Assembly (NCBI GenBank): GCA_043815445.1
Contig: JBDRIY010000019.1
Coordinates: 5,368 to 69,367, forward strand
Length of the DNA stretch: 64,000 bases
DNA from: Candidatus Omnitrophota bacterium
GTDB lineage: Bacteria; Omnitrophota; Gorgyraeia; Duberdicusellales; 4484-171
Direction: 5' to 3'
Shown here: piece after piece, positions 30,020-43,600 of the stretch
How positions within the stretch are numbered: position 1 is the first letter of the stretch
How the letters are laid out: each line of letters starts with the position of its first letter
The notes under the pieces: generated by a model
Database searches by the model: none
What the model saw: the letters and a program-made list of their open reading frames with translations, nothing else
What the model was told of the DNA's origin: nothing
Position numbers and translations under genes: made by a program

Positions 30020-30823
30020 TTACCTTATACCTTTTGTGCTTGCTATTTTCTCTCCCATTCGAACCAAATCTTCTAAAAAAAGCTTTCCCATTGGCTTCAC
30101 ATAAAAACCTTTTATCTCTTTAATACCGAGTTTATCCTTCTCTTTATATTGAATATTAATAATATCGAACCAAGCAAACGGAACTAATATACAATGTTTT
30201 ATCCCCCATTCCATACCGCTACAAGCCCAATCTTGCGACTGCGCGTTCCATTTAAGATTTAAATTTGTTATTAATTTTTTCGTAAATTTTTTAAAATCTA
30301 TCCCGCGCTCAATGCCGCTTATTTCTTTTATGTAAGGTATTAATTCCAGTATTTTATCTTGAATCATCTGCCCAAAATCTCCTTCCGGCATCCAGTTATT
30401 CCAATCCATGCTAAACCACCATGCCAAAATAAGCCATAGTTTTTTCTTGCCTCCATCCATATTGAAAAAATTATCATACTCTGCCCCGGAAAATAAAACA
30501 TCTTTATCATTTACGGCAATACATTCGCTGGCTTCCGCTAATAAATCCATAAAATATATCCTGGGAAAACAATACTCTTCGCGAATTCTGTATATTTTAT
30601 CTCCTATTTTATCTTCCACACGCAAAGGGGTTTTAAGCAAAGCGTTAATCGCGTAAAGATGTTTAACCGGAATCCATCTACACTTAGGTGTTAACTTTAT
30701 TTTATGGCTATTAACATAAGATAAAAATTCTTTAAAATCGCATAGAAAATCTTCTTTTTCAAAACGTTTGTTGAGATCTTCCATAAAAGCGTCAACATCA
30801 AGGAATAAAGGCTCTGTTTTCAT
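30020..30823 (-). CDS. hypothetical protein (first gene of the accessory island; W-rich; no motif recognised)
   Basis: 267-aa ORF sitting 80 bp downstream of the PIF1-like helicase gene; no recognisable catalytic motif. Confidence 0.4.
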   Translation of the reverse strand: MKTEPLFLDVDAFMEDLNKRFEKEDFLCDFKEFLSYVNSHKIKLTPKCRWIPVKHLYAINALLKTPLRVEDKIGDKIYRIREEYCFPRIYFMDLLAEASECIAVNDKDVLFSGAEYDNFFNMDGGKKKLWLILAWWFSMDWNNWMPEGDFGQMIQDKILELIPYIKEISGIERGIDFKKFTKKLITNLNLKWNAQSQDWACSGMEWGIKHCILVPFAWFDIINIQYKEKDKLGIKEIKGFYVKPMGKLFLEDLVRMGEKIASTKGIR

Positions 30824-30903: not shown

Positions 30904-32328
30904 TTATACCTGAATAATTGCTTCATAAAATCGTTTGATCCGTTGATCGCATTTTATTTCATTCTTTTCAATAGGCCGGGCTAAAGTAATATCCCGTAAT
31001 GATCTACACCTACTTAAAGCAACGTAAACTTGTCCTGATGCAAAGGCGCCATTTCCTAAATCTACTCTAACTTTCTCCAAAGTTTTCCCCTGACTTTTAT
31101 GTATCGTAACAGCCCATGCAAGCATCAAGGGAAACTGTGTATATTTTCCAACAACAACTGGCTTGATTTTGTCTTTTGAATAGTCATATGCGTATTTAAA
31201 TGACTCCCAACTTACCCTATGTACATCAAGAACTTCTCTTGATTGATCAGAAACTAATTCCACCTGTATCAATTCATTTTTAAAATTTACAACACGGCCG
31301 ATAGTTCCATTAACCCATCTCTTTTGTTCATCATTCTTCGTAAACATTACTTGCGCACCTGGCTTCAATTGCAAATTCAAAGGTGACGGAAGCTTTTCTT
31401 CTTGAACAGCGAACTTCCCGGAAATTTCTCCGATAAACGAACTCACTTCTCCCGGCAATTGCTGGAGTTTTAAGTTATTGATTTTATCAGCGGCAGTATT
31501 AGTACATGTAAGAGTTATTAACGACGGGGCTTCATCTTTTTCATCTATACAACGCTTATTAATTTGATGAATAACCGCGCAGCATTGTTCAGCTACCCGT
31601 ATTCGATTTAACATTTCTGTAAATTTAGAGTCAGTTTGCCTAAATATTTTACACAACTCAATCGGAACAAATTCACAATTCTGCAATACTTTGGCGCTAA
31701 AGAAAAAAGGGCTTTCATATCTTCTGGCCGCAAGAATTTTCTCCTCTTGTTTTTTAACAACCGGCGGTAATTGAAACAGGTCGCCGACAAATAAAACTTG
31801 TATACCGCCAAAAGGTTGGTTAGAACGCGGCCCGTTTAAACGCAGAAATTGATCCATAGCATCAATCAAATCAGCGCGTACCATAGAAACCTCATCAACG
31901 ATTAACACATCAATCTTTTCATAAACCGTCCGGCTCCTTACTCCTTTTATATCCTCATTAGTAATAATTCTCGGCGGTAAACGAAAAAAAGAATGAATTG
32001 TTGCTCCTTTGGCATTTAACGCGGCCACTCCGGTAGGAGCGACAACCACCACATTTTTATTTAATTTCTCTCTAAGATAATGGATTAAAGTCGTCTTGCC
32101 TGTGCCTGCTTTCCCGCTTACAAATAAAATGGGTAAATTATTATTTAATAATTTTTCAATATTTTCATATTCCTCAGTTACCTCTATATCCGCAAGAATA
32201 TCGAGATTGTCTTTCTTTAAATCCTTTGATTGACAAAAACTTCCGGCAGCATGACGGTTTAGCCTCCCAATATTAACCGGCTTAACTCCCAATATCCCTT
32301 TCAATGAATCTAAGATACTCATGTCCAT
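30904..32328 (-). CDS. PIF1/RecD-family (SF1B) helicase-like ATPase
   Basis: Walker A SGKAGTGKTT, Walker B LIVDEVSMV and the C-terminal YVALSRCRSL motif typical of Pif1/RecD/TraA-like helicases. Confidence 0.75.
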   Translation of the reverse strand: MDMSILDSLKGILGVKPVNIGRLNRHAAGSFCQSKDLKKDNLDILADIEVTEEYENIEKLLNNNLPILFVSGKAGTGKTTLIHYLREKLNKNVVVVAPTGVAALNAKGATIHSFFRLPPRIITNEDIKGVRSRTVYEKIDVLIVDEVSMVRADLIDAMDQFLRLNGPRSNQPFGGIQVLFVGDLFQLPPVVKKQEEKILAARRYESPFFFSAKVLQNCEFVPIELCKIFRQTDSKFTEMLNRIRVAEQCCAVIHQINKRCIDEKDEAPSLITLTCTNTAADKINNLKLQQLPGEVSSFIGEISGKFAVQEEKLPSPLNLQLKPGAQVMFTKNDEQKRWVNGTIGRVVNFKNELIQVELVSDQSREVLDVHRVSWESFKYAYDYSKDKIKPVVVGKYTQFPLMLAWAVTIHKSQGKTLEKVRVDLGNGAFASGQVYVALSRCRSLRDITLARPIEKNEIKCDQRIKRFYEAIIQV

Positions 32329-32367: not shown

Positions 32368-33069
32368 TTACTTTATAAATAGTAACTCTAATCTATCTTT
32401 TCTTTTTTCCCAATCAGGTATAATCTTTGTCAATAAGTCATAAAATCTTTTATTATGATGTTTATATTTCACATGGCATAATTCATGAGTGATAACATAA
32501 TCAATGCAATATTTTGGGGCATGAATTAACAAAGGATTTAGAACAACAGTATCCTTATTAACAAAACTCCCCCATCTTTTATTCATTTTTCTAATCGATA
32601 ATTTAAAGGTTTTTAGATAATTAAAACACTCAAGAACCCCGACAAAACGCTCCTGGAAAATAACATTCGCACGTTTTCTGTACCACACATCAATTAACTT
32701 CCGATTATAATCTCCGTTGGAAACTTTAGCCTGAGTATCAAGCAATAAACGTCCTTTCGCAAGAGAGACATTATCATCTTTTGCCCTCTTAACTATCAGC
32801 TTATACTGACGCCCTAAATATAAAAAACTCTCCCCTGATATGTATTCTTTCTCATATCTCTCCCTCTGAAACCTCTTAAAGAAACTAAGCTGTTTATTAA
32901 GCCATTTCCACTTCTTCTTTAAAAACGCTTCAATACGATCTTCCTTTGCCTCAATCGGACACCGGAGGACAATACCCATATCTGGACATACGGTCAAACT
33001 AAGAGTTTTTCTTTCTTGCCTCAAAAACTCATACTCATATCTATATTGACCGTAAGTAAATACTTTCAT
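32368..33069 (-). CDS. YgjP/DUF45-family (M48/SprT-like) zinc metallopeptidase; hsdR-associated
   Basis: HExxH zinc motif VITHELCHVKYKHH near the C-terminus. It is paralogous to ORF 53460..54164 (shared FLYLG(R/Q)(Q)YKL block). It overlaps the hsdR stop by 4 nt. Confidence 0.75.
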   Translation of the reverse strand: MKVFTYGQYRYEYEFLRQERKTLSLTVCPDMGIVLRCPIEAKEDRIEAFLKKKWKWLNKQLSFFKRFQRERYEKEYISGESFLYLGRQYKLIVKRAKDDNVSLAKGRLLLDTQAKVSNGDYNRKLIDVWYRKRANVIFQERFVGVLECFNYLKTFKLSIRKMNKRWGSFVNKDTVVLNPLLIHAPKYCIDYVITHELCHVKYKHHNKRFYDLLTKIIPDWEKRKDRLELLFIK

Positions 33070-36000
33070 TTAAAGATCTCGTAATTATTTTCAGCTAATT
33101 CCATTGCCTTATCTATGATATCCTTCATTTCCTCATTTGACAAATCAATACCACGCTCACCCTTAACAACATCATAAACATAATCATCAATTTTATTACG
33201 CATTATTCGCTTAACCTCAGCGTTTTTATACCAATCGACTATGCTTTCCTGATGTAGAATTGAATATATATCAAGAATTATCTGCTCAAAATCAGGCCTA
33301 TTTAGTTTATGCGACTGAAAGATAGGGCACAAATTACGATAAAATATATCCGCGCCTTCTTTTTGGCTAATCTTTTCAGGAATGCTCTCATCACGCTTTT
33401 GAACAACACTGTTTTTTATATCCTTCAATTCCTTTAACGCCGCGATATCTGCCATTTTCTCTTGACGCATTTTCTCTAAGATTTCATGTATTTTCTCTGA
33501 AAATCTTTTATAAAATTCAGGATCAGAATTGTATTTTTCTTTAATTGTACGTTCTGTCTGCGCTGCAATAGCCTCCGCTTTTGATTTATTAGAGCCTAAA
33601 GATTCAATAGCTTTCTCAAACTGCTCACTATCAGTAATGTTAATCTGTTTTGTTAATAATTCAACACCCTGAGCGTCAACATAATCATCAAGGATACTAA
33701 CAAGCGAACGCTTATACTTAGTCAAATCTACTTTATCAGCATACCTCAAACTTGCCGCTTTGCGGATTTCAACCATTTTTTTTATCTCTTTCTTGTAAAC
33801 ATCGATATGTTTAAACTCCTTCACGAAATCCTGTAATGCCAAACATTCGTTGAAATTCCGCAGAAACTTATTCAATACTTCATAGAAGACCACTCTTCTT
33901 TGTTCGCCATCTTCCTTAGTATCACCACCCAAAACGGTCAAGTATTCCTCACTATCACTTTTGTTCTTTATCTCTTTGAATAAATCATGAACCTCAGCAT
34001 AACTCTGTTCAAGCTCGTTAATCTTTTCCCCAACATCAATTAACGCTCCTTTAACGTCTTCTTCGTCATAATTACCAAATAATTTCATAGCCGTATCTAT
34101 ATTTTTAGCATTCTCAGAATAGTCTATAATGAATCCCGCTGTCTTTGGCAGTTCTTTATTATCATAAAGCCTATTAACACGCGCTATTGCCTGCAATAAA
34201 CTATGATCTCTTAAATCTTTTGCCAGATAAAGGACGGTATTGCATGGGGCGTCAAATCCAGTTAATAATTTATCTACAACTATTAGTATCTCGATCCCGT
34301 CAGGATTATACTTAAAACTGTCGATAACATCTTTTTCGTAAGATTCCAGGCTTCTATACTTTTCTTTCGTTTTATCTAAATATTCAATAACCTCTTTTTT
34401 ATGCGCGTCATCTTCGTCAACAATGCCATTTTCACCGGATATAACAATTGCCGTTTGAATTTTACCGCTAGACTCAAAAGCTTTCTGCATCAACACAGCC
34501 GAAAATTTTGAAGGCGAAACAATTTGCGCCTTCAAGCCTGTCCCCTGAAATTGACCACAATAATGATTCTCTATATCAACAGCAATATCCGCAATGCGCT
34601 GAGGATTATCTTTAATTATTTTTGTATTAACCAGCTTCTGTAATTCTCTTTTAGCCTTATCATCTAAATCCTTGATTATCGCGTCAACCCGCCGATCAAT
34701 CTGTTCTTTATTTTCAATCAAATCAACATAACGCCCTTCATAAATAAGAGGTAATATAATCTCATCTTTTAACGCGTCATCAATTGTATATTTATCGATA
34801 TACCCGCCAAATTTCTTCCAACTTTCACGGTCTTTCTTTAACAAAGGTGTACCCGTAAACCCAATGTAGCAAGCGTTGGGCATTACGCGGTTCATTTCAA
34901 GATTAGCAATCCCGGTTTGTGTTCGATGAGCTTCATCAATAAGCACAAATATATTTTTATCTGTATCACGAAAATTCATACGCTTCTTAGATACTGAATC
35001 AAATTTATGAACCAATGTCGTAATCACCTTGAGATTTTTTTCTTGAATAAGATCTAACAAATGCTGGCCGCTAGTAGCTTTTATCACGCCTTTTTTTAAG
35101 CCACAATTCTTGAACGTTTCAGCAATCTGCTTATCTAAATCTTTTCGATCAGTTACAATAATAACGCGTGGGTTTAATATATACGGATGTTCAATCAACG
35201 CCTTAACAAACAAAACCATGGTGAGCGATTTCCCGCTACCTTGGGTATGCCATAAAAGCCCCCCGCAACGCTTATTTCCCTCAACCCCTTTCTGCTCTTC
35301 TTCAACACGCATCAACATCTTAGCAATCGCGAAATATTGCTGATATCTCATTATTTTTTTTATCCCGGCGTCATAAATAATATAATTCTTTGTAAAATCA
35401 AGCAACCGTTTAGGAGCAAGTAACGAAACAATTCCCCTATCTTGTTCCGTGGCTAACCGGGTTTTTCTCTGGTTATAGTCTTGTGAAACTCCTAAATCTT
35501 CGCGCACTTGCGAATAAGCCGATGAATCAAGCGGTTTTTCAATATAGCGTTTTACATAACTTTCTAACTCTTTCTTAGCAATCCCCTTTTCTTTCCAAAT
35601 AGAATAAAACTTAGCCTGAGTTAGTGTAGTTCCGTATCGAAATTCCGATCCATTGGTCGCAATCAATAGTTGAGAATAAACAAAAAACTTGGGACAATAC
35701 TCCGCCCGCTGATTACGCGACATCTGAAAGATAGCTTCTTTTATATCCACACCGGCTTTTTTATTCTCAATAACTACAAAAGGAATACCGTTTACAAAAC
35801 AAACAATGTCCGGACGAATATGCCTCTTACCGTTGGCTTCATATTCAACCGTTACGTGAAAAACATTGTTTTCAGGGTGAGCAAAATCAATAAACCTAAA
35901 GCTTCTAGATATATTTTTGCCCTCATGGAAAACTTTGATTGTCTTTCCTCCTGTCTTAGGCATAATCATATTGTATACCAATCGCGAGGTGTCAATTAAT

Positions 36001-36269
36001 CCCTCAAGAGGAAGGCTTTCAAGCTCTTCTACCACGTCATATACATTTTTTTCGCTAAACTTATATATTTGCCCATAATACTCATATCCGTTTATTGCCA
36101 TAAGCGCTTTTGCCGCGATTTTTTTAAGTATAAATTTTGAAGCATCGCCATTACGCTGACGCATCACCTCCTCAGATGAAATATAGGAATACCCCATGCT
36201 TATTAGTACTTCAACAAAAGGAAGTTGCGATTGCCTTATTTCATCAAAATCAGCTTTAATATTATTCAT
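33066..36269 (-). CDS. hsdR: type I restriction enzyme R subunit
   Basis: 1067 aa; N-terminal PD-(D/E)xK nuclease DIVCFVNGIPFVVIENKK, SF2 motif I HTQGSGKSLTMV and DEAH box VLIDEAHR. Confidence 0.95.
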   Translation of the reverse strand: MNNIKADFDEIRQSQLPFVEVLISMGYSYISSEEVMRQRNGDASKFILKKIAAKALMAINGYEYYGQIYKFSEKNVYDVVEELESLPLEGLIDTSRLVYNMIMPKTGGKTIKVFHEGKNISRSFRFIDFAHPENNVFHVTVEYEANGKRHIRPDIVCFVNGIPFVVIENKKAGVDIKEAIFQMSRNQRAEYCPKFFVYSQLLIATNGSEFRYGTTLTQAKFYSIWKEKGIAKKELESYVKRYIEKPLDSSAYSQVREDLGVSQDYNQRKTRLATEQDRGIVSLLAPKRLLDFTKNYIIYDAGIKKIMRYQQYFAIAKMLMRVEEEQKGVEGNKRCGGLLWHTQGSGKSLTMVLFVKALIEHPYILNPRVIIVTDRKDLDKQIAETFKNCGLKKGVIKATSGQHLLDLIQEKNLKVITTLVHKFDSVSKKRMNFRDTDKNIFVLIDEAHRTQTGIANLEMNRVMPNACYIGFTGTPLLKKDRESWKKFGGYIDKYTIDDALKDEIILPLIYEGRYVDLIENKEQIDRRVDAIIKDLDDKAKRELQKLVNTKIIKDNPQRIADIAVDIENHYCGQFQGTGLKAQIVSPSKFSAVLMQKAFESSGKIQTAIVISGENGIVDEDDAHKKEVIEYLDKTKEKYRSLESYEKDVIDSFKYNPDGIEILIVVDKLLTGFDAPCNTVLYLAKDLRDHSLLQAIARVNRLYDNKELPKTAGFIIDYSENAKNIDTAMKLFGNYDEEDVKGALIDVGEKINELEQSYAEVHDLFKEIKNKSDSEEYLTVLGGDTKEDGEQRRVVFYEVLNKFLRNFNECLALQDFVKEFKHIDVYKKEIKKMVEIRKAASLRYADKVDLTKYKRSLVSILDDYVDAQGVELLTKQINITDSEQFEKAIESLGSNKSKAEAIAAQTERTIKEKYNSDPEFYKRFSEKIHEILEKMRQEKMADIAALKELKDIKNSVVQKRDESIPEKISQKEGADIFYRNLCPIFQSHKLNRPDFEQIILDIYSILHQESIVDWYKNAEVKRIMRNKIDDYVYDVVKGERGIDLSNEEMKDIIDKAMELAENNYEIFK

Positions 36270-36951
36270 AGTTAACCTCTAAACGAAATTGATTACCAAT
36301 AAAAGCAAATGCTCCGCCCATTTCAATTAGAAATCGATTTATCCTAAGCATGAGCCCACGCTCAAGCTCTTTTTCGCTATGTTCTTCCCCTAATTCCAAA
36401 AAATCAAAAGCATATTCATCTTTTATCGCTAACTTTGCCTGATTGTGAATTTTCGCGGGAAGTGTTTTCTTGAAATTAGTCTGGTTCATAACCGTTTTTT
36501 CATAACTCTGATTCTCAATCTGATGAACCAAAACATTCTTTGTCCATCCCATTCTCTTTGTCATACGGATATAAAATTCACGTTCTAAATAATCCTTACA
36601 CCGCTCCAAAATCATAATATTGTGCGACCAGCCAATTTCTCGCACCAATGGTGCGAGTTTTTCACTTTTGCCGTAAGCTAAATAAAAATTACGCATTCTC
36701 CAAAGCCCAGATGATGAAAACCCTAAAATTCCGACAAACTCTACCTGCAAATCTTTTGACAAATTGTCAACAATTGCCTTCCCCCATCCATGCTCCTTCT
36801 GTTGCGCGACAATCATTTTCCCAATATCCCAATACAAGTTAATAAGCTCTTTATTAACCTTCTTAAGCGCTTGATACTGCGCGGAACGAATACGTTCTTT
36901 AATCTCACTAATAAATTTAGTATATTCTAATGTACTCTTAATTTTTTTCAT
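36262..36951 (-). CDS. DUF1016 (YhcG-like) family protein, apparently C-terminally truncated before the PD-(D/E)xK core
   Basis: Matches the YhcG N-terminal region (GWSHNIMILERCKD...GGAFAFIGNQFRLEV) but stops at ...EVNYE*. The stop overlaps the hsdR start (ctATGAAtaa) where the nuclease block normally follows. Confidence 0.65.
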   Translation of the reverse strand: MKKIKSTLEYTKFISEIKERIRSAQYQALKKVNKELINLYWDIGKMIVAQQKEHGWGKAIVDNLSKDLQVEFVGILGFSSSGLWRMRNFYLAYGKSEKLAPLVREIGWSHNIMILERCKDYLEREFYIRMTKRMGWTKNVLVHQIENQSYEKTVMNQTNFKKTLPAKIHNQAKLAIKDEYAFDFLELGEEHSEKELERGLMLRINRFLIEMGGAFAFIGNQFRLEVNYE

Positions 36952-38233
36952 AATTTTTAACCTTATCCAATAAATCCTCAGGAGTACGAATCTCCCCTGT
37001 GATAAGTTTATTTAAAAGATATTTCTTTTGCGCAGCAACTACACCCCTCTTCTTCTCCAGCGCCTCAATCTCAGCATCTGCTTTAGTAAGAATGTCGGCA
37101 ATAGCATCTTGTTCTTTTTTAAGTTTGGGAACATTTAATCTTAAATCAGAAAAATCATTTTTATTTAAAATTGGCATCGCTCCTGCTCCAGCAAATTTCC
37201 TTAATAACGTCAATGAGTTATTTATTAAATAAAATAAAAATTCATTATTATATTTCTCATTAACAATTATTGAATTAATTTGCTGATTTGTTGCTAATGG
37301 CACAGCCGCAATTGCATTTTTACCTATCGACGCAATACAAGTAATTAGTAAACTGCCCTTTGGTAACCATCTCGAAAGATTTTTACCAATCTCGGAAAGT
37401 TTCACCTCAGTATTCTTAATATATTTTGATTTAAAATCATCCGCAGTTGCCCAGCAATAATCTGACCCATAATTACTTTTGTCTTTCATTGGCGGCGTAT
37501 TGCCCGTCACAATCTCACCCATACTTTTTAACTTTATAATTTCCCATTTCTCACAAAACCCTTTTAATCGTTTTTTGCCAGTCAACAGTTGCTGCATTAA
37601 TCCTTTTTTAATATTCTTCTTAATCTCAATCTTACGATCAAGCCCTCGCAAATAACCATCCCACGCCTCAAGTACTGCTACTATGCGTTTTTGTTCTGGG
37701 AGGGGTGGAAGAAGTAGTTGAACTTTCGATACTTCATATTTTGAAATACTATACACTGAGACGCCATTAGCTACTTTTTGCAGGTGCCTCCTAATAGTAG
37801 GGTTGCTAAAAATATATTGACGAAATGATTTAAGCGTAGCATCAGGTTTTCCGCGAAGCACAAAAGTATGCAATCCACCCACAACTTTCTTGCTATTTAA
37901 TCCACGAACAAGAACATTAGTGGCAACGCCTTCGTAGTCCTCAGAAGCATCTGCCATAACAAGATCACCGTCTTTTAGCAAATCCTCTGTGCTTGGGTGA
38001 AAAGTATTTTCTACAACTATTGGTACAAGTGTGTCATCCAAAGAAATGATAGAGCTATTAAAAGTCGAATGAATATCACCATAATGAATATTGCCTACAT
38101 TTCCGATAGATACTAAACCATAGTTTAATTTTTCTCGCGACAATGCATATGATTTAACATACGAAAAAATTTTACCAACTGGAACAATCGACCAACCACA
38201 TGGTATAGGTTGTGCTTTTTTATTTTTTACCAT
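36938..38233 (-). CDS. hsdS: type I restriction-modification specificity subunit (two target-recognition domains)
   Basis: 431 aa with two variable TRDs separated and followed by conserved coiled-coil repeats (LPPLPEQKRIVAVLEAWD...; EQDAIADILTKADAEIEALEKK). Confidence 0.9.
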   Translation of the reverse strand: MVKNKKAQPIPCGWSIVPVGKIFSYVKSYALSREKLNYGLVSIGNVGNIHYGDIHSTFNSSIISLDDTLVPIVVENTFHPSTEDLLKDGDLVMADASEDYEGVATNVLVRGLNSKKVVGGLHTFVLRGKPDATLKSFRQYIFSNPTIRRHLQKVANGVSVYSISKYEVSKVQLLLPPLPEQKRIVAVLEAWDGYLRGLDRKIEIKKNIKKGLMQQLLTGKKRLKGFCEKWEIIKLKSMGEIVTGNTPPMKDKSNYGSDYCWATADDFKSKYIKNTEVKLSEIGKNLSRWLPKGSLLITCIASIGKNAIAAVPLATNQQINSIIVNEKYNNEFLFYLINNSLTLLRKFAGAGAMPILNKNDFSDLRLNVPKLKKEQDAIADILTKADAEIEALEKKRGVVAAQKKYLLNKLITGEIRTPEDLLDKVKNYEKN

Positions 38234-38726
38234 AATTGTCTCTTATATTAACTGCTTCTTCGACCCATTTTTCTATATTTTTGGCAATATGGTCATATAC
38301 ATTTTTACTAAACTCATAAGGTGAATTATATAGCTTAACCACACTGGACAGCTTCTTTTGACCTTCTTTTAATGTAAATTTTTCAAAAGGATTATCACCT
38401 TGCGTGGATTTATTCCCATTTGAATCCTTTAAATTGTGTATTCTGATTCCGACAATACCTTTTTTTGCATTCCAAGCCTTCTCTATCTCCTTACGAACCC
38501 ATTTCCTTGAAGCCGTACTAGAACCAACTAGAACTACAGCACAAGATTTACCCTTAAGCTGATCTTCAATCCAGTTTTCAACAGCTGTATCACCTTTTTT
38601 CTTTATTTTTTCCCAATCGTTATCCGATATAGGCTTATTGCCTTCAACTACGCCTATGTTTCTGACTTGACTGGTTCGCCAACAATCATTTTTAAAATGA
38701 AAACTATAAAATACTTTTCTTACCAT
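38220..38726 (-). CDS. TIR-like domain protein of the ThsB/DUF1863 type
   Basis: 168 aa. The block pattern KVFYSFHFKND..VRN / AVVLVGSSTASRKWVRKEIEKA / GIVGIRIHNLKDSNGNKSTQGDNPF follows the Thoeris ThsB TIR-like family (my recollection of B. cereus ThsB; no HMM run). It overlaps the hsdS start by 14 nt. Confidence 0.7.
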   Translation of the reverse strand: MVRKVFYSFHFKNDCWRTSQVRNIGVVEGNKPISDNDWEKIKKKGDTAVENWIEDQLKGKSCAVVLVGSSTASRKWVRKEIEKAWNAKKGIVGIRIHNLKDSNGNKSTQGDNPFEKFTLKEGQKKLSSVVKLYNSPYEFSKNVYDHIAKNIEKWVEEAVNIRDNYGKK

Positions 38727-38737
38727 AATAAATCTCC

Positions 38738-39232
38738 TTATTTACAAAAATATTCACAACATATAGGTTTTAGTACCTCAAACGCCCGTGGAAACACATT
38801 AATAAAAAACACAAGAATCACCATAGCAATAGGGATCAAGTAAAACGGCTTTAACGTAATGGAAAACATAACATCACGAATAGTACCAACATCATCTAAA
38901 TTTATATTGCCTCTTTTCCTATGAGGATTTAAATCATATAAATGCTCTTCATTACCTTTCTTTCTTTCTACTATAACCCACTCGTAAATTTTTCTATACT
39001 TTTTCTCTGTGTGAAGGAAAAAGGCATCTAAATACCAAAAACTAATAATTGGTATTAACAAAATAAAGCTCAACAGTGATATATTGGCAACCTTATCACC
39101 TAAAGCTAAAACAACAGCGACTAGCGAAATAGTCCAACCTTTTATTAAAAAAGAATTATGTGCCATGCGAGAAATACATGCTTGAATCAAATCAATTTCC
39201 TTGTGTAAAACTTCATTAGATATCTGTGCCAT
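38738..39232 (-). CDS. small three-TM membrane protein (candidate effector; possibly SLATT-like)
   Basis: 164 aa. Predicted TM helices at ~30-46, 52-72 and 126-146, a basic cytosolic loop (KKYRKIYEWVIVERKKGNEEH) and a C-terminal CCEYFCK. It lies 12 and 14 bp from the flanking TIR genes. Confidence 0.5.
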   Translation of the reverse strand: MAQISNEVLHKEIDLIQACISRMAHNSFLIKGWTISLVAVVLALGDKVANISLLSFILLIPIISFWYLDAFFLHTEKKYRKIYEWVIVERKKGNEEHLYDLNPHRKRGNINLDDVGTIRDVMFSITLKPFYLIPIAMVILVFFINVFPRAFEVLKPICCEYFCK

Positions 39233-39246
39233 AGAACACCTCTTAT

Positions 39247-39945
39247 TTAATTGACCACCTTACAAATATTATAACTATTAATATCATCGTTTATATCTTG
39301 TGCTATGCCCAAATAGCTATTAACATTTAAGACAAAATCAGACCATTTTACCGTATAGATATAACTAGGATATCCACTATAGATGGTGGTACGATTATGG
39401 CAAGCCTGGTAAACAGGATTGATAGTATTAAACATATTATCCCTAAGTATAGGGAATAAGCGAGCTGTATTATATAAAGTACAGCCTGGCAGACAACAAG
39501 AATAAGAATTAACAAAATAACTATAACTACCGATAGAATCAGGAAGAATCACTGCAAGAACAGCGTTTGTCTGGCTTGCTCTATCATTTCTTGCATGCTC
39601 CTTCAAAGAATATGAGATTTCCCACGGAATCCATTGATCTGAATCGGGAACGCTTGACTCACGCATATTAGGAGAAATTAAAACTATAGTTACACTGCTA
39701 TCGTAAATTTTATCCCTCAACTTATACTTAATCGTTTCATCTTTTAGATGACTAATATCTTCTTGATCTCTCTCCCCTTTATAAACATCATCACCGTGTT
39801 CCATGTATGTTTCAATTTTATCCACATAATCTCTTGCTGTTGTAGGATTAAGCGCCTCCTGGAAACTACCGTCTCGCAAAGATAAAACATCTTGATCTTT
39901 ATGTTTATATGATACAAAAATTTTCTTACCCAAAATAACCTCCAA
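39247..39945 (-). CDS. second TIR-like (DUF1863/ThsB-like) domain protein with C-terminal Cys/Tyr-rich extension
   Basis: N-terminal KIFVSYKHKDQD, central SVTIVLISPNMRESS and WIPWEISYSL blocks in the same order as the ThsB-like gene; 232 aa. Confidence 0.55.
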   Translation of the reverse strand: MEVILGKKIFVSYKHKDQDVLSLRDGSFQEALNPTTARDYVDKIETYMEHGDDVYKGERDQEDISHLKDETIKYKLRDKIYDSSVTIVLISPNMRESSVPDSDQWIPWEISYSLKEHARNDRASQTNAVLAVILPDSIGSYSYFVNSYSCCLPGCTLYNTARLFPILRDNMFNTINPVYQACHNRTTIYSGYPSYIYTVKWSDFVLNVNSYLGIAQDINDDINSYNICKVVN

Positions 39946-40042
39946 AAAGATTAAATTCCATTATTCTATCTCCAATTCCTTAAGATAAACCGACATCTCT
40001 TTCTTAAACTCCTCAAGAACAAATTTTTCACCATAAACATTT

Positions 40043-40897
40043 TCAGGCGATTCTTTTCTTTTTCCCTTCAATCTGCTTAACTTTTTTATTTGATATCAAT
40101 AGCTTCATCTGCGTAATTGCTATTTGATTTAATTTCATTAATCTCTCAGCTTGAGATTTTCCTTCACTGATAAATAAAGCGTTCAGATTTTCCAGATTAG
40201 AAAGGCAAATAAGCTGTGCTATGTTGGCGTAATCACGAATATTTCCTTTATTATCTTTGTTTTTATCTCTCCACCGCTTAGCCGTCATCCCAAATAATGC
40301 CATATTTAACACATCCGCTTCACTGGCATACACACATTGCTGTTGTTTCTTTGTAACTTGCGCGGGAATTAAATGTTCTTTAATTGCGTCAGTATGTATC
40401 AGATAATTTATTTTTGTTAAATTCCTTTTAATATCCCAGCCGAGTTGCTTTTGCTCATACTCTTTTAGCCGCTGAAATTCCTTGATTAAATATAATTTAA
40501 ATTCTGAAGAAATCCATGACGCGAATTCAAAAGCAATATCCTTATGAGCATATGTTCCGCCGTATCGTCCTGACTTAGAAACAAGGCCTATAGCATTTGT
40601 GTTTTCTATCCACTTTTTAGGAGACAATACAAATGAATTTAAACCTGCCTCGTTTTTAAACCAGTCGAATTCGACCCCTTTAAAACTTCGATTGTTTAAC
40701 TTTTCCCACAAACCTAAAAACTCAATTGTATTTTTACTCCGCATCCAGTTTTTGACAACATCTTTAGGCTCCTCAGGATTTCTATATCGGGCAATGTCAG
40801 TAATACAAATATAATCACCCTTCTTTGTGCTATAAATATCTACTTTTCTTTGCAAAACATTAATAGTACCCATAGATTGGCTATCTCTCATAATCAT
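40043..40897 (-). CDS. KilA-N domain-containing protein
   Basis: N-terminal block ICITDIARYRNPEEPKDVVKNWMRSKNTIEFLGLWEKLNN...SKSGRYGGTYAHKDIAFEFASWIS is the typical KilA-N domain, frequently embedded in type I R-M loci. Confidence 0.8.
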   Translation of the reverse strand: MIMRDSQSMGTINVLQRKVDIYSTKKGDYICITDIARYRNPEEPKDVVKNWMRSKNTIEFLGLWEKLNNRSFKGVEFDWFKNEAGLNSFVLSPKKWIENTNAIGLVSKSGRYGGTYAHKDIAFEFASWISSEFKLYLIKEFQRLKEYEQKQLGWDIKRNLTKINYLIHTDAIKEHLIPAQVTKKQQQCVYASEADVLNMALFGMTAKRWRDKNKDNKGNIRDYANIAQLICLSNLENLNALFISEGKSQAERLMKLNQIAITQMKLLISNKKVKQIEGKKKRIA

Positions 40898-40904
40898 ATC
40901 TCCT

Positions 40905-42413
40905 TTACTTAATCCCTAATTCTTTCAAATAAGCCGCCATCTCTTTCTCAAGCTTCTCAAGTTTTGGCTCAAGCTCAGCCAACTCTTTAAGATTAGCTGA
41001 TATATCAATCTCAGTATCTTCCACAAAAGTATCAACATATCTTGTAATATTAAGGTTAAAGTCGTTTTCTTCAATTTCTTTAAAATTAACTTTACGAGAA
41101 AACTTATCAATATCTTTTCTCTTAATGTAAGTGTTATAAATCTTTTTAATATTATCGTCAGTTAAGGAATTTTGAGCTTTGCCCGGCTTAAACTCTTTAG
41201 ACGCTTCAATAAAAAGAATGCTCTTTTTTTTCTCATTAGCCCCGCCTGCCTCACGAGAACGATCTATAATAAGTATGGCAACCGGTATCCCTGTTGTCTG
41301 AAAAAGCCCCGCAGGTAAGCCAATGACAGCGTCAATAATGTTTTCTTCTAAAAGCTGTTGGCGAATTTTACCTTCAGCGCCGCCCCTAAACAATACCCCG
41401 TGCGGAACAATAACCGCGACACGGCCTGTTTTAGGTTTTGCTACTTCTATCATATGAGAGACAAATGCATAATCACCCTTATCTTTAGGCGGAACACCTC
41501 TAAAAAATCTATTATACCTATCATGCTCAGCACTTTCTGCTCCCCATTTTTTTAAACTAAAAGGAGGATTAGCAATAACCACATCAAATTTCATCAGCTT
41601 ATCATTCTCAACAAGCAAAGGATTGTTAAGCGTATCACCCCATTCAAGTCTCGCTGAATCTTTACCATGAAGAAACATATTCATGCGCGCAAGCTGATAG
41701 GTGCTTCCTGTTGACTCTTGGCCATATAAGGCATAATTTTTTGTATCCTGTTTCTCAACTTCTTTACCGGCTAATAAAAGAAGGCCGCCTGAGCCCATCG
41801 CCGGGTCACAAATACGATCGCCTTCTTTGGGTTGAGACAACATCGCAACCAGGGTTGCTACTGTTTTGGTAGTAAAAAATTCGCCCGCTTTCTTACCGGC
41901 ATCAGCACCAAACTTTTCAATCATATACATATAAGAGTTACCAATAATATCTTCATCGGTGTCACTTAAATCAATTTTATAAAAATCATTAATCAAATGG
42001 CGTAACATCTTATTCCGTTGTTCCTGTCTACCAAGAACAGCCTCTGAATTAAAATCAACACTAAAAACGCCTTCTAATTTACTCTTATTAATATCCTCAA
42101 TTTTATGCAGAACCTTATTTATTTCCTCACCGATATTGTCTTGTTCATGAATACTATAAATATAATCAAAAGATGTTTTAGCTGGTAAGTAGAAACGATC
42201 TGCTTTCATCTTCTCGGCAATACGCTTTTCGTCATCCCCAAAACGTTTTTTATACTTTTGGTGCTGTTTTTTTGATAAATCGCTAAGGTACTTAAAAAAC
42301 AACATTGATAAAGCATAATCCTTATAAACATCCGCATTAACCGCAGTGCGGGAAGAATCGGCCGCTTTCCATAAAACAACATTTAAATCTTCTTGCGTAT
42401 ATTTTTTTGTCAT
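40905..42413 (-). CDS. hsdM: type I restriction-modification N6-adenine DNA methyltransferase subunit
   Basis: HsdM N-terminal domain, AdoMet motif I DPAMGSGGLL and catalytic motif IV VIANPPFS. Confidence 0.95.
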   Translation of the reverse strand: MTKKYTQEDLNVVLWKAADSSRTAVNADVYKDYALSMLFFKYLSDLSKKQHQKYKKRFGDDEKRIAEKMKADRFYLPAKTSFDYIYSIHEQDNIGEEINKVLHKIEDINKSKLEGVFSVDFNSEAVLGRQEQRNKMLRHLINDFYKIDLSDTDEDIIGNSYMYMIEKFGADAGKKAGEFFTTKTVATLVAMLSQPKEGDRICDPAMGSGGLLLLAGKEVEKQDTKNYALYGQESTGSTYQLARMNMFLHGKDSARLEWGDTLNNPLLVENDKLMKFDVVIANPPFSLKKWGAESAEHDRYNRFFRGVPPKDKGDYAFVSHMIEVAKPKTGRVAVIVPHGVLFRGGAEGKIRQQLLEENIIDAVIGLPAGLFQTTGIPVAILIIDRSREAGGANEKKKSILFIEASKEFKPGKAQNSLTDDNIKKIYNTYIKRKDIDKFSRKVNFKEIEENDFNLNITRYVDTFVEDTEIDISANLKELAELEPKLEKLEKEMAAYLKELGIK

Positions 42414-42415
42414 AG

Positions 42416-43045
42416 TTATTCCCCCACTATTTTATTTAATAATCCATTAATAATATTTTTTTTAATGGCACACTTTTTTTCTAACAAAGTTATCTGCATC
42501 GAGATATTCAAGTAAAGATCCACAAGCTTGCGCTGATCTTCCACCGAGAGCAAGTTGATCTTGATATTTTCGATATCTTTACGCAATATATATTTGATAG
42601 CGGCTCCGGTCATAAGATGACTAAACTTCTGTTGGCCAATCGGAGAATTAAGATATAGCGCCAAATAATCAGGTAAAATTATGTTGTTGTCTTTAGCGCG
42701 CAATATATATACGGAAGAAGACGCTAATATTTTTTTATTTGACCTAACCACAGCAGAACGAAAAACACCTTTGTTTGAGATAACAACATCATTGGGCTCA
42801 ATAAAAGCCTTAGTGTGAGAAGTATCACAATTAGTAGCCACTAAACCAGATACATCAATAGATAAAGCATCTTTTTTAATATTTTTAGCTTGTAAGGCAA
42901 ATAAGGAGCTGCCAAAATGCTCTTCTATGGCACCACGAAAAGTGTACCCTGCGATAATGTCAACTATGTGCTTTAGCTTTATTTTATTTTTCATACGGGA
43001 AGTATACTGCAAAAAACAAAAGCTGTCAAGTATTTTTTTACGCAT
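42416..43045 (-). CDS. hsdS: half-size type I specificity subunit (single TRD)
   Basis: 209 aa with one TRD plus the conserved C-terminal coiled-coil repeat (LSVEDQRKLVDLYLNISMQITLLEKK); lies 2 bp upstream of hsdM. Confidence 0.75.
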   Translation of the reverse strand: MRKKILDSFCFLQYTSRMKNKIKLKHIVDIIAGYTFRGAIEEHFGSSLFALQAKNIKKDALSIDVSGLVATNCDTSHTKAFIEPNDVVISNKGVFRSAVVRSNKKILASSSVYILRAKDNNIILPDYLALYLNSPIGQQKFSHLMTGAAIKYILRKDIENIKINLLSVEDQRKLVDLYLNISMQITLLEKKCAIKKNIINGLLNKIVGE

Positions 43046-43526
43046 ACTGCAAGCATACTGTAAAATAGGCAGGATTTGTAGCGAATTTATTTGATTCTCA
43101 CAATCTGTAATTCAGTCCACACGTTACTTAATTAGGTATCATGTGTCCCCGGAATTTCCGGGCTTTACCCCCCCCATTAGATTTCGGTCTGTGAAGCTGA
43201 AATATTTGCTGTTTCCTAAAATACTTCCTTTTTTAAATCTCTCATTCTGATTAAAAATATATCAGCGGCGTCTTTTTTCAGCTCCGTCATCGTTCATCCC
43301 TCCTAAAAATAAAAAAACCTCCACGTTTTATTCGCGAAGGTTTTATCCGCCTGAGGCGGATAGTTCGGGATTTAGCCTTCTTAACTCGGGACTTTTGCCT
43401 AATTGTAATTATGCTTTATCTCGAAAAACAAAGTTGTCAATGGTTTCTTATAAAACCTTACTCTTCTACGCCTTCGCTTTGCTCTTGGCTTCGAAGCAGC
43501 ACCAAATCTTTGCTTCAGCAAAAATT

Positions 43527-43600
43527 TGGTGGAGCCGACGGGAATCGAACCCGTGATACCACAATGCCATTGTGGTGTGATCCCGCTTCACCACGGCCCC
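43527..43600 (-). tRNA. tRNA-Ala (anticodon GGC)
   Basis: Reverse complement folds as GGGGCCG-TG-GTGA-AGCGGGA-TCAC-A-CCACA-ATGGCAT-TGTGG-TATC-ACGGG-TTCGATT-CCCGT-CGGCTCC-A-CCA. It has the G3:U70 Ala identity pair, anticodon GGC and an encoded CCA. Confidence 0.85.

What the first reader, a model, noticed from the sequence alone, without database searches (positions are those of the whole stretch)
32368..43045. Type I R-M locus with split specificity genes and embedded cargo
The minus-strand gene order is a half-size hsdS (single TRD, 42416-43045), then hsdM, then a KilA-N protein, the TIR-TM-TIR cassette, a full two-TRD hsdS, a DUF1016/YhcG-like protein, then hsdR and a YgjP/DUF45 metallopeptidase. 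Most junctions overlap or are under 15 bp, so the locus looks like a single operon. Two hsdS genes of different size flanking the cargo suggest either TRD shuffling/phase variation or a duplicated S gene that arose when the cargo inserted. The DUF1016 protein ends exactly at the hsdR start codon (gaggttaactATGAAtaa), before the point where YhcG-family proteins carry their PD-(D/E)xK block. It is therefore either a naturally short paralog or a truncation created when hsdR was juxtaposed.
Basis: partly seen in the sequence, partly recalled or inferred. Interest (0 to 1): 0.6.

Follow-up and report, generated by a model that had tools for sequence, protein, structure and literature searches.

The report
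Restriction operon carrying embedded defence cassettes
This is an intact Type I restriction-modification operon of a widespread family that always has an extra short specificity-like gene in front and almost always carries other anti-phage genes inside it; it is a good example of a known phenomenon, not a new kind of system.

Summary
The gene order is real: half-size S, hsdM, KilA-N, TIR–membrane protein–TIR, full hsdS, short DUF1016, hsdR, YgjP, all on the minus strand and tightly packed.

The reading of the two S genes is not supported. 79 of 80 related loci from several phyla carry the same ~190-aa half-S gene directly upstream of hsdM, whatever their cargo. The half-S proteins form their own clade, share no repeats with the full hsdS, and lie in the same orientation with no recombinase nearby. 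Similar short-S plus long-S operons are published (Staphylococcus xylosus hsdRSMS, Bacillus licheniformis BlihIA). There the short S is needed for, or co-purifies with, one enzyme that recognises an asymmetric site.

The DUF1016 truncation is supported. It is a 356-nt deletion at an AGGT microhomology relative to the closest locus, and it removes the whole nuclease motif.

New details:
- A family-wide promoter that predicts a leaderless half-S mRNA. The true start is 42994.
- A relic of the hsdM 3' end between KilA-N and the first TIR gene. Similar relics occur in 8 other loci, which points to cassette gain by recombination at the hsdM tail.

The TIR–TM–TIR cassette is a mobile Thoeris-like module (PADLOC candidate PDC-M50).

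The parts
43001..43029 (-). Operon promoter: -35 TTGACA (43029-43024), 17-nt spacer, -10 TATACT (43006-43001). The A of the half-S ATG (42994) lies at the expected +1, so the mRNA is predicted to be leaderless.
   Evidence: 11 of 12 match, the best in 14 kb. T-12, A-11 and T-7 are conserved in 61-63 of 70 related loci, with TTG at -35.
42416..42994 (-). Half-size S protein (hsdS_short-like): one TRD plus one coiled-coil helix, 192 aa. The mechanical ORF call reaches 43045.
40905..42413 (-). hsdM, N6-adenine methyltransferase subunit, 502 aa.
   Evidence: closest solved structures: PacII M1/M2, EcoR124I HsdM.
40043..40897 (-). Embedded KilA-N domain protein (PADLOC candidate PDC-S22), full length.
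   Evidence: KilA-N 2e-22; PDC-S22 3e-134, profile positions 5-278 of 281.
39957..40017 (-). Relic of an hsdM 3' end (..EEFKKEMSVYLKELEIE*). 77% identical over 61 nt to the real hsdM end at 40901-40961. It lies just upstream of the TIR1 ribosome-binding site.
   Evidence: 6.6 bits in context and 16.4 bits alone, against at most 0.0 bits in 300 shuffles; equivalent relics in 8 other loci.
39247..39933 (-). TIR1, ThsB-like TIR protein. WIPWEI motif, Glu109 in 232-aa ORF numbering.
   Evidence: ThsB_TIR 1.6e-7; PADLOC ThsB 4e-78.
38738..39232 (-). Small membrane protein with three long helices (PDC-M50A); predicted effector of the TIR cassette.
   Evidence: 4.5e-38; pLDDT 87; always next to TIR genes; 4,346 representative clusters.
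38220..38726 (-). TIR2, ThsB TIR protein (PDC-M50B). WVRKEI motif, Glu80.
   Evidence: 7e-27; ThsB 3e-75, PDC-M50B 8e-65.
36938..38233 (-). Full-length hsdS with two TRDs, 431 aa.
   Evidence: Methylase_S, 2 stretches; positions 11-416 of a 413-position profile.
36262..36951 (-). Truncated DUF1016/YhcG (PDC-S02) gene. The N-domain is intact; the PD-(D/E)xK core (the D of IDILLY and ELK in the L002 orthologue) is deleted.
36275..36278 (-). Deletion junction: the AGGT microhomology that joins DUF1016 codon ~225 to the hsdR ribosome-binding site.
   Evidence: 356 nt missing relative to L002 6618-6974.
33066..36269 (-). hsdR, restriction/translocase subunit, 1067 aa.
32368..33069 (-). YgjP-like (DUF45) metallopeptidase, overlapping the hsdR stop by 4 nt. 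It follows hsdR in essentially all related loci that reach that far.

Best explanation
The locus is an intact Type I restriction-modification operon in a Candidatus Omnitrophota genome. It belongs to a cross-phylum family whose fixed layout is: short S – hsdM – [slot 1] – full hsdS – [slot 2] – hsdR – YgjP.

R-M core. HsdM, full HsdS and HsdR form the classical enzyme. The 192-aa short S is a conserved extra subunit, not a spare or a remnant. By analogy with the S. xylosus hsdRSMS and B. licheniformis BlihIA systems, it most likely joins or stabilises the M–S complex, so that one asymmetric bipartite site is methylated correctly (inferred).

Transcription. It starts at a conserved sigma-70-type promoter positioned so that the short-S mRNA is leaderless (predicted). 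It then runs through all ten tightly coupled genes (inferred).

Slot 1. It holds two independently acquired cassettes:
- A KilA-N protein.
- A Thoeris-like module in which two TIR sensor/signal-producing proteins share one small three-helix membrane effector. The predicted outcome is abortive infection by membrane damage (inferred).

Cassette gain. An hsdM 3'-end relic between the two cassettes shows that the TIR module once sat directly behind an hsdM. The KilA-N gene was then added by recombination in the conserved hsdM tail.

Slot 2. It holds a DUF1016 nuclease gene that was inactivated by a 356-nt microhomology deletion. That deletion left hsdR translationally coupled.
For: - Identities of all parts.
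- Family architecture: 79 of 80 loci have a half-S upstream of hsdM. Slot 1 is occupied in 60 of 61 loci (median 1,665 bp) and slot 2 in 20 of 57. 155 of 161 cargo ORFs are co-directional.
- The same layout is annotated in a Methylocystis rosea plasmid and in oral-metagenome contigs.
- Half-S is a separate clade. Among close relatives (HsdM >=90% identical) it stays 70-97% identical while the full S drops to 28-41%. That mirrors the published behaviour of hsdS_short (PMC10030836; BlihIA, PMC12429846).
- Promoter.
- No intergenic terminators.
- Relics.
- Deletion.
- TIR–TM association outside R-M loci.
- Catalytic Glu motifs.
- Cargo repertoire (Bro-N, RhuM, Shedu, AAA ATPases, type II Thoeris, SMODS and others).
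- Embedding is a documented phenomenon (bioRxiv 10.1101/2024.01.29.577857).
Against: - No expression, methylation or phage data exist for this organism.
- Specific orthology of the window's half-S to S. xylosus hsdS_short is not shown. BLASTP gives 25% identity over 102 aa, and hhalign gives 94% probability. That is no better than the match to the window's own full-S TRD. HsdM is 36% identical.
- In S. xylosus, hsdR lies upstream, not downstream.
- Between distant loci the half-S is as divergent as the full S (37% against 33% mean identity), so a role in recognition cannot be excluded.
- The 3' end of the transcript is undefined: no terminator was found after YgjP, the PIF1-like gene or orf267.
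- Consensus scans cannot exclude internal promoters.
Confidence: 0.7

Rival explanations
1. The half-S is an independent second specificity subunit. It homodimerises, pairs with the same HsdM and HsdR, and gives the operon a second, palindromic recognition site.
For: - Truncated or natural half-S proteins of Type IC systems (EcoR124I delta-50, EcoDXXI, NgoAV) work as homodimers with palindromic sites (PMC3874165). Engineered half-S does the same in S. aureus (PMC6158711).
- The window protein has a TRD plus a coiled-coil helix.
- Between distant loci it is as variable as a specificity subunit.
Against: - In both published short-S plus long-S operons only one asymmetric motif was found. The short S was needed for, or co-purified with, that activity (PMC10030836; PMC12429846).
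- Among close relatives the half-S is conserved while the full-S TRDs are swapped.
Confidence: 0.17
2. The two S genes are substrates for TRD shuffling or phase variation.
For: Two hsdS-like genes lie in one locus. About 4% of Type I operons have redundant hsdS genes, some of them phase-variable (cited in PMC12429846).
Against: - The two genes have the same orientation and no shared direct or inverted repeat longer than chance. Protein identity is 21%.
- No recombinase is adjacent.
- No simple-sequence repeat lies in coding DNA.
- Half-S and full-S TRD pools never mix in 54 loci.
Confidence: 0.02
3. The half-S is a leftover from a duplication or disruption of hsdS caused by cargo insertion.
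For: Its size is about half of an hsdS, and it lies on the far side of the cargo from the full hsdS.
Against: - It is present, intact, 185-199 aa long and promoter-proximal in 79 of 80 loci with unrelated cargo.
- It is also present in S. xylosus, where there is no cargo.
- It forms a distinct clade.
Confidence: 0.01
4. The half-S is mainly a DNA-binding regulator, playing the role of a C-protein. It would control the operon by binding the conserved CAGTA-containing boxes at its own leaderless promoter.
For: - The -10 box is embedded in a conserved quasi-palindrome (CAGTATACTG).
- A second CAGTA...GTGTG element lies upstream of the -35 in many loci.
- The solved half-S-like homodimer Esub1 was proposed to act like a transcription factor (PMC11754733).
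Against: - The boxes are conserved across loci whose half-S TRDs are only ~30-40% identical.
- No binding data exist.
- In BlihIA the short S co-purified with the restriction complex.
Confidence: 0.07
5. The 229-aa DUF1016 protein is a functional, naturally short paralogue, not a dead gene.
For: - The ORF is open and the N-domain is intact.
- It is translationally coupled to hsdS and hsdR.
- PADLOC holds PDC-S02 models of only 222 and 234 positions that it matches end to end.
Against: - The nearest 120 homologues are 252-373 aa, mostly ~340 aa.
- The L002 orthologue (83% identical) is 342 aa. The window differs by a clean 356-nt deletion that removes D, E and K of the nuclease motif.
Confidence: 0.1

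Closest known systems
Staphylococcus xylosus hsdRSMS and Bacillus licheniformis BlihIA (Type I systems with a short and a long HsdS)
   Same: - A ~191-aa single-TRD S gene lies directly upstream of hsdM, with a full two-TRD S downstream and a sigma-70 promoter in front of the short S.
- The short S never occurs as part of a long S.
- The short S is conserved among relatives whose long S differs.
   Different: - hsdR is downstream here and upstream in S. xylosus.
- hsdM and the long S are separated by 2.7 kb of cargo here and overlap by 8 bp there.
- HsdM is only 36% identical, and short-S orthology is not demonstrable.
- A YgjP gene is fused to the operon end here.
Defence genes embedded in Type I R-M operons (EcoprrI–PrrC, Campylobacter rlo genes, V. 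cholerae TgvAB, PADLOC 'phage defence candidates')
   Same: - Co-directional genes are nested between hsd genes.
- All the cargo here matches PADLOC candidates defined by such embedding (PDC-S22, PDC-M50, PDC-S02).
   Different: - None of these three candidates has been tested experimentally, as far as I found (one search found no paper naming PDC-M50).
- Here the insertion scars (hsdM-tail relics) are visible. The papers I read do not describe such scars.
Thoeris systems with membrane effectors (type II ThsB + Macro-TM; type V DUF2270; type VII SLATT)
   Same: - ThsB-like TIR proteins with the catalytic Glu motif sit next to a small multi-helix membrane protein.
- More than one TIR gene per effector.
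- A type II Thoeris occupies the same slot in the closest locus, L002.
   Different: - The effector has no Macro, SLATT, DUF2270 or any other Pfam domain and no PDB fold match.
- The signal molecule and the phenotype are unknown.
Half-S homodimers (EcoR124I delta-50, NgoAV, Esub1 crystal structure)
   Same: One TRD plus one dimerisation helix. Weak sequence match to Esub1 (8e-6).
   Different: - Those are truncation products or orphan genes.
- This one is a conserved, promoter-proximal gene that coexists with a full S in the same operon.

Membership tests
Type I restriction-modification system | HsdM with HsdM_N and N6_Mtase domains | tested here: met
   (3e-99, 4e-21).
Type I restriction-modification system | HsdS with two TRDs separated by conserved helices | tested here: met
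   (36938-38233, two Methylase_S stretches, full-length PADLOC match).
Type I restriction-modification system | HsdR with an N-terminal nuclease domain and an SF2 translocase | tested here: met
   (HSDR_N 4e-35, SWI2_SNF2 6e-75).
Type I restriction-modification system | Bipartite m6A methylation and ATP-dependent restriction | not testable with these tools
   Needs a methylome or biochemistry.
Short-S/long-S Type I variant (S. xylosus hsdRSMS, BlihIA) | A ~190-aa single-TRD S gene immediately upstream of hsdM, plus a full S in the same operon | tested here: met
   (192 aa, 2-nt gap to hsdM); for the reference locus.
Short-S/long-S Type I variant (S. xylosus hsdRSMS, BlihIA) | The short S is a lineage of its own, is not exchanged with long-S TRDs, and is conserved when the long S varies | tested here: met
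Short-S/long-S Type I variant (S. xylosus hsdRSMS, BlihIA) | Sequence orthology of the short S to the S. xylosus protein | tested here: inconclusive
   (25% identity, E 4e-4). (hhalign 94%, similar to the match with an ordinary TRD).
Short-S/long-S Type I variant (S. xylosus hsdRSMS, BlihIA) | Gene order hsdR–S_short–M–S_long | tested here: not met
   hsdR is the ninth gene here, downstream of the long S.
Short-S/long-S Type I variant (S. xylosus hsdRSMS, BlihIA) | Both S proteins are required for correct methylation | not testable with these tools
   Experimental.
Phase-variable Type I system (hsdS inverton/shufflon) | Inverted hsdS copies that share repeats | tested here: not met
Phase-variable Type I system (hsdS inverton/shufflon) | An adjacent site-specific recombinase, or simple-sequence repeats in coding DNA | tested here: not met
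Thoeris | ThsB-type TIR protein with a catalytic glutamate | tested here: met
   The motif was read from the sequence; its catalytic role comes from general knowledge of TIR enzymes.
Thoeris | A named effector (SIR2-SLOG, Macro-TM, DUF2270, SLATT and others) | tested here: not met
   no Pfam domain in the TM protein or in 45 homologues.
PADLOC candidate PDC-M50 | Adjacent genes matching the PDC-M50A and PDC-M50B models | tested here: met
   (4.5e-38 and 8e-65).
YhcG/DUF1016 PD-(D/E)xK nuclease (PDC-S02) | DUF1016 N-terminal domain | tested here: met
   (2.5e-45, positions 1-137 of 137).
YhcG/DUF1016 PD-(D/E)xK nuclease (PDC-S02) | Complete PD-(D/E)xK catalytic core | tested here: not met
   (YhcG_C positions 3-55 of 157 only); the D and ELK of the L002 orthologue are absent.

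The most novel reading that the evidence does not exclude
This cross-phylum Type I family may behave like a cassette platform.

- Embedded defence genes would travel as units consisting of an hsdM 3' tail plus a gene. They would be stacked behind hsdM by homologous recombination between hsdM tails. That would explain why slot 1 is filled in 60 of 61 loci and why tail relics, some matching a foreign hsdM allele better than the resident one, precede embedded genes.
- Together with an obligatory, leaderless short-S subunit, this would define a distinct, self-diversifying 'defence scaffold' class of Type I system.
Probability: 0.4. Interest if true: 0.55.

Novelty: new member of a known kind. Interest (0 to 1): 0.38.

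Why it matters
The locus adds no new kind of system, but the family comparison sharpens three points.

- The short-S/long-S Type I variant has so far been described only in staphylococci and Bacillus. It has a much larger counterpart in candidate phyla radiation (CPR) bacteria, Omnitrophota and Proteobacteria, which makes the unexplained role of the short subunit a general question.
- The hsdM-tail relics give a concrete, testable mechanism for how defence genes become embedded in R-M operons. The embedding literature I read leaves this open.
- The TIR–TM–TIR cassette belongs to a large family of membrane proteins (over 4,000 representative clusters) that have no Pfam annotation and are always linked to TIR genes. 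That makes it a candidate new Thoeris effector worth testing.

Tried and rejected
- Exact-sequence look-ups of the window's HsdM and TM protein found no contig on record. The source was inferred only from a 100% identical NCBI protein of a Candidatus Omnitrophota MAG.
- Fold search against afdb50 was unavailable. Foldseek against the PDB gave only noise for the TM protein (best E 1.9).
- Pfam at relaxed thresholds gave no SLATT or DUF2270 hit for the TM protein, for 34 homologues or for 10 more distant representatives. No literature names PDC-M50.
- A tblastn of the half-S against plasmids found no Staphylococcus hit. Direct and profile comparison with S. xylosus hsdS_short was inconclusive. 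Two accession look-ups failed before NZ_CP066727.1 worked.
- The idea that the conserved half-S TRD implies a conserved DNA target was dropped. Mean pairwise identity is only 37% and the conserved positions are generic TRD scaffold motifs.
- A search for hsdS-tail relics in slot 2 found only one case, L048, so the relic pattern is essentially an hsdM-tail phenomenon.
- The PIF1-like helicase downstream of YgjP gave only generic helicase-domain PADLOC matches. I did not include it in the system.
- No terminator defines the operon's 3' end.

Full report
OBSERVATION

- 42416-43045: single-TRD S protein.
- 40905-42413: HsdM.
- 40043-40897: KilA-N, = PADLOC candidate PDC-S22 (3e-134).
- 39247-39945: ThsB-like TIR.
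- 38738-39232: membrane protein, = PDC-M50A.
- 38220-38726: ThsB TIR, = PDC-M50B.
- 36938-38233: two-TRD HsdS.
- 36262-36951: DUF1016_N plus only the first third of the YhcG_C nuclease domain (= PDC-S02).
- 33066-36269: HsdR.
- 32368-33069: YgjP-like metallopeptidase.

Gaps between consecutive genes are 2, 7, 109, 14, 11, -14, -14, -8 and -4 nt.

The source is a Candidatus Omnitrophota MAG, since the TM protein is 100% identical to NCBI ABIH08_01335. Upstream lie a tRNA-Ala-like gene and tRNA-Leu. Downstream lie a PIF1-like helicase, an unknown ORF, an AP endonuclease-fold protein and LeuRS. No integrase or recombinase is present.

THE TWO S GENES

The half-S and the full S are only 21% identical. 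No direct or inverted DNA repeat links them.

A scan of species-representative genomes with HsdM returned 80 loci at 73-93% identity. They come from Patescibacteria/candidate phyla radiation (CPR) bacteria, Omnitrophota, Gammaproteobacteria, Nitrosomonas and others.

A tblastn with the window's proteins shows the family layout:
- 79 of the 80 loci have a half-S gene immediately upstream of hsdM.
- A variable gap follows, then a full hsdS.
- Sometimes there is a second gap, then hsdR and YgjP.

The same layout is annotated in a Methylocystis rosea plasmid whose HsdM is 60% identical. It also appears in human oral-metagenome contigs.

Family half-S proteins are 185-199 aa. They form their own clade. 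The worst half-S/half-S pair (median 72 bits, minimum 51) generally beats the best half-S/full-S pair (median 46 bits, maximum 65).

Among close relatives (HsdM >=90% identical), the half-S stays 70-97% identical while the full S falls to 28-41%. Occasional exceptions, such as L029, show that the half-S allele can also be replaced.

So the half-S is a conserved component of the family. It is neither a product of cargo insertion nor a TRD reservoir. There are also no simple-sequence repeats in coding DNA.

WHAT THE HALF-S PROBABLY DOES

Two papers describe operons with a short and a long HsdS:
- In S. xylosus hsdRSMS (PMC10030836), the 191-aa hsdS_short lies directly upstream of hsdM. It is conserved among strains with different motifs and never occurs as part of a long S. 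It is needed for complete and specific methylation of an asymmetric site.
- In B. licheniformis BlihIA (PMC12429846), only one motif, RTAC(N5)GCT, was detected, and both S proteins co-purified with the enzyme.

The window's half-S has the same size, position and evolutionary behaviour. Specific orthology could not be shown:
- BLASTP gives 25% identity over 102 aa.
- hhalign gives 94% probability, no better than the match to an ordinary TRD.
- HsdM is 36% identical.
- hsdR lies on the other side in S. xylosus.

I therefore favour an accessory or assembly subunit of one enzyme, by inference. The classical alternative is a half-S homodimer giving a second, palindromic specificity, as in EcoR124I delta-50 and NgoAV (PMC3874165). 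It remains possible.

PROMOTER AND OPERON

The best sigma-70-like site in 14 kb is TTGACA-17-TATACT at 43029-43001. It lies inside the mechanically called 209-aa ORF.

I anchored 70 related loci on the Met that precedes the conserved GYTFR motif:
- T-12, A-11 and T-7 are conserved in 61-63 of the 70 loci, with TTG at -35 to -33.
- 43 loci have exactly 6 nt between the -10 box and the ATG.
- The A of the start codon therefore sits at the expected +1.
- The half-S mRNA is predicted to be leaderless throughout the family, and the window gene starts at 42994 (192 aa).

No terminator-like hairpin falls in any intergenic gap, which is consistent with a single operon. Consensus scans cannot prove that, and the 3' end is undefined.

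CARGO AND HOW IT GOT THERE

Occupancy and content of the slots:
- In 61 loci where the full S could be placed, the hsdM–hsdS gap is 96-3,879 bp (median 1,665). Only one gap is under 600 bp.
- The hsdS–hsdR gap exceeds 600 bp in 20 of 57 loci.
- The 161 cargo ORFs fall into more than 60 clusters, and 155 are co-directional.
- Annotated cargo includes Bro-N (20 loci), AAA_21/AAA_15 ATPases (11), RhuM (8), Shedu (7), KilA-N (6), AntA, NYN, DUF4145, DUF3800, SMODS, UvrD-like helicase and type II Thoeris.
- This is the 'embedding' described by Payne et al. (bioRxiv 10.1101/2024.01.29.577857).

The window's only long gap, KilA-N to TIR1, contains the strongest direct repeat of the region:
- 39957-40017 is 77% identical to the hsdM 3' end at 40901-40961. 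It encodes ..EEFKKEMSVYLKELEIE* against ..EKLEKEMAAYLKELGIK*.
- Against a profile of 79 HsdM tails it scores 6.6 bits in context and 16.4 bits alone. The maximum in 300 shuffles was 0.0 bits.
- Eleven more relics occur in 8 other loci. Each lies between the end of one embedded gene and 3-17 nt before the start of the next.
- Some relics match another locus's HsdM tail better than the resident one. For L014 the relic matches L028 at 22 of 22 residues, against 17 of 22 for its own tail.

The simplest reading is that a gene keeps the hsdM tail it once followed. New genes are then inserted by recombination within the conserved hsdM tail, which stacks cassettes. By this reading, the TIR cassette once abutted an hsdM and KilA-N arrived by a separate event. 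One analogous hsdS-tail relic was found in slot 2 of L048.

THE TIR–TM–TIR CASSETTE

- Both TIR proteins keep the W-x-x-x-E motif: Glu109 in TIR1 and Glu80 in TIR2.
- The TM protein belongs to a large family of 4,346 representative clusters with invariant motifs.
- The AlphaFold model is confident (pLDDT 87) and shows three long helices.
- The family has no Pfam domain and no PDB fold match.
- Homologues always sit beside TIR genes:
  - TIR–TM–TIR next to Gabija in another Omnitrophota genome (L085).
  - TIR–TIR–TM next to a BrxR-like regulator (L082).
  - TIR–TM in slot 2 of the same R-M family (L083).
  - TIR2–TM–TIR1 or TM–TIR1 in L029, L043 and L022.
- The closest locus, L002 (HsdM 88% identical), carries a type II Thoeris in the same slot. 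Its ThsA is split into two ORFs.

The cassette is thus an autonomous Thoeris-like module with a membrane effector. That matches the recently expanded Thoeris repertoire (bioRxiv 10.64898/2025.12.03.692087). It does not belong to a named type.

DUF1016

- The 120 best homologues (66-83% identical) are nearly all 334-361 aa.
- L002 has a 342-aa orthologue (83% identical) followed by hsdR.
- DNA alignment shows the window lacks 356 nt between two AGGT motifs (L002 6618 and 6974).
- The loss removes the IDILLY...ELK nuclease core and the intergenic spacer. The hsdR ribosome-binding site and start are kept.
- The gene is therefore a truncated, catalytically dead derivative. PADLOC's short PDC-S02 models show that such short forms recur elsewhere.

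VERDICT

The locus is an ordinary, well-preserved member of known kinds: a Type I R-M system with a short and a long S subunit, carrying embedded PADLOC candidates. Three family-level details go beyond what I found in the literature:
- The leaderless promoter.
- The hsdM-tail relics, which imply cassette exchange.
- The near-obligatory occupancy of slot 1.

Noticed in passing
window 43527-43600 (-): ARAGORN calls this tRNA-Ala(GGC). Rfam scores the same 74 nt higher as the joined ends of tmRNA (42.5 bits, below the gathering score of 47, E 2e-15), and a permuted-tmRNA model hits 43497-43554. A terminator-like hairpin follows at 43344-43314. It could be an ordinary tRNA or part of an unusual tmRNA gene.
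   Followed up: no
window ~43042-43062 and 43001-43010 (-); equivalent positions in L002-L080: The -10 box of the half-S promoter is embedded in a conserved (T)GCAGTAnnCT(G) quasi-palindrome. A second CAGTA...GTGTG element with an A-tract lies upstream of the -35 in many loci. The window has ACAGTATGCTTGCAGTATGCG. These may be operator sites.
   Followed up: partly
window 43168-43175: A C8 (G8 on the minus strand) homopolymer lies about 140 nt upstream of the operon's -35 box, in intergenic DNA. It is the only long G/C run near the locus.
   Followed up: no
window 30904-32328 and 30020-30823 (-): A PIF1-like helicase starts 39 nt after YgjP, and a 267-aa ORF without any family match follows 80 nt later. 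No terminator separates them from the operon. The PADLOC matches cover only the helicase domain (PDC-S68, RecD-like). These genes may or may not belong to the island.
   Followed up: partly
L002 3856-4329 and 4338-4688: In the closest related locus, the type II Thoeris effector (ThsA Macro) is split into two ORFs of 157 and 116 aa. Embedded cargo is decaying there too, in parallel with the DUF1016 deletion in the window.
   Followed up: partly
L002 2399-3235: The embedded Bro-N protein (PDC-S13) matches positions 5-268 of a 717-position PADLOC 'Type I specificity subunit' model at 2.5e-116. Bro-N–HsdS fusion proteins therefore exist, which hints at a functional link between these DNA-binding cargo proteins and the S subunit.
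   Followed up: no
L048 13778-13876 (Minisyncoccus archaeiphilus): A relic of the hsdS 3' end (..LLNNLITGKIRTLE..) lies between hsdS and an embedded slot-2 gene. It is the only hsdS-tail relic found among 61 loci.
   Followed up: partly
L060: This is the only one of 80 related loci with no detectable half-S upstream of hsdM, although 10 kb of upstream sequence is held.
   Followed up: no
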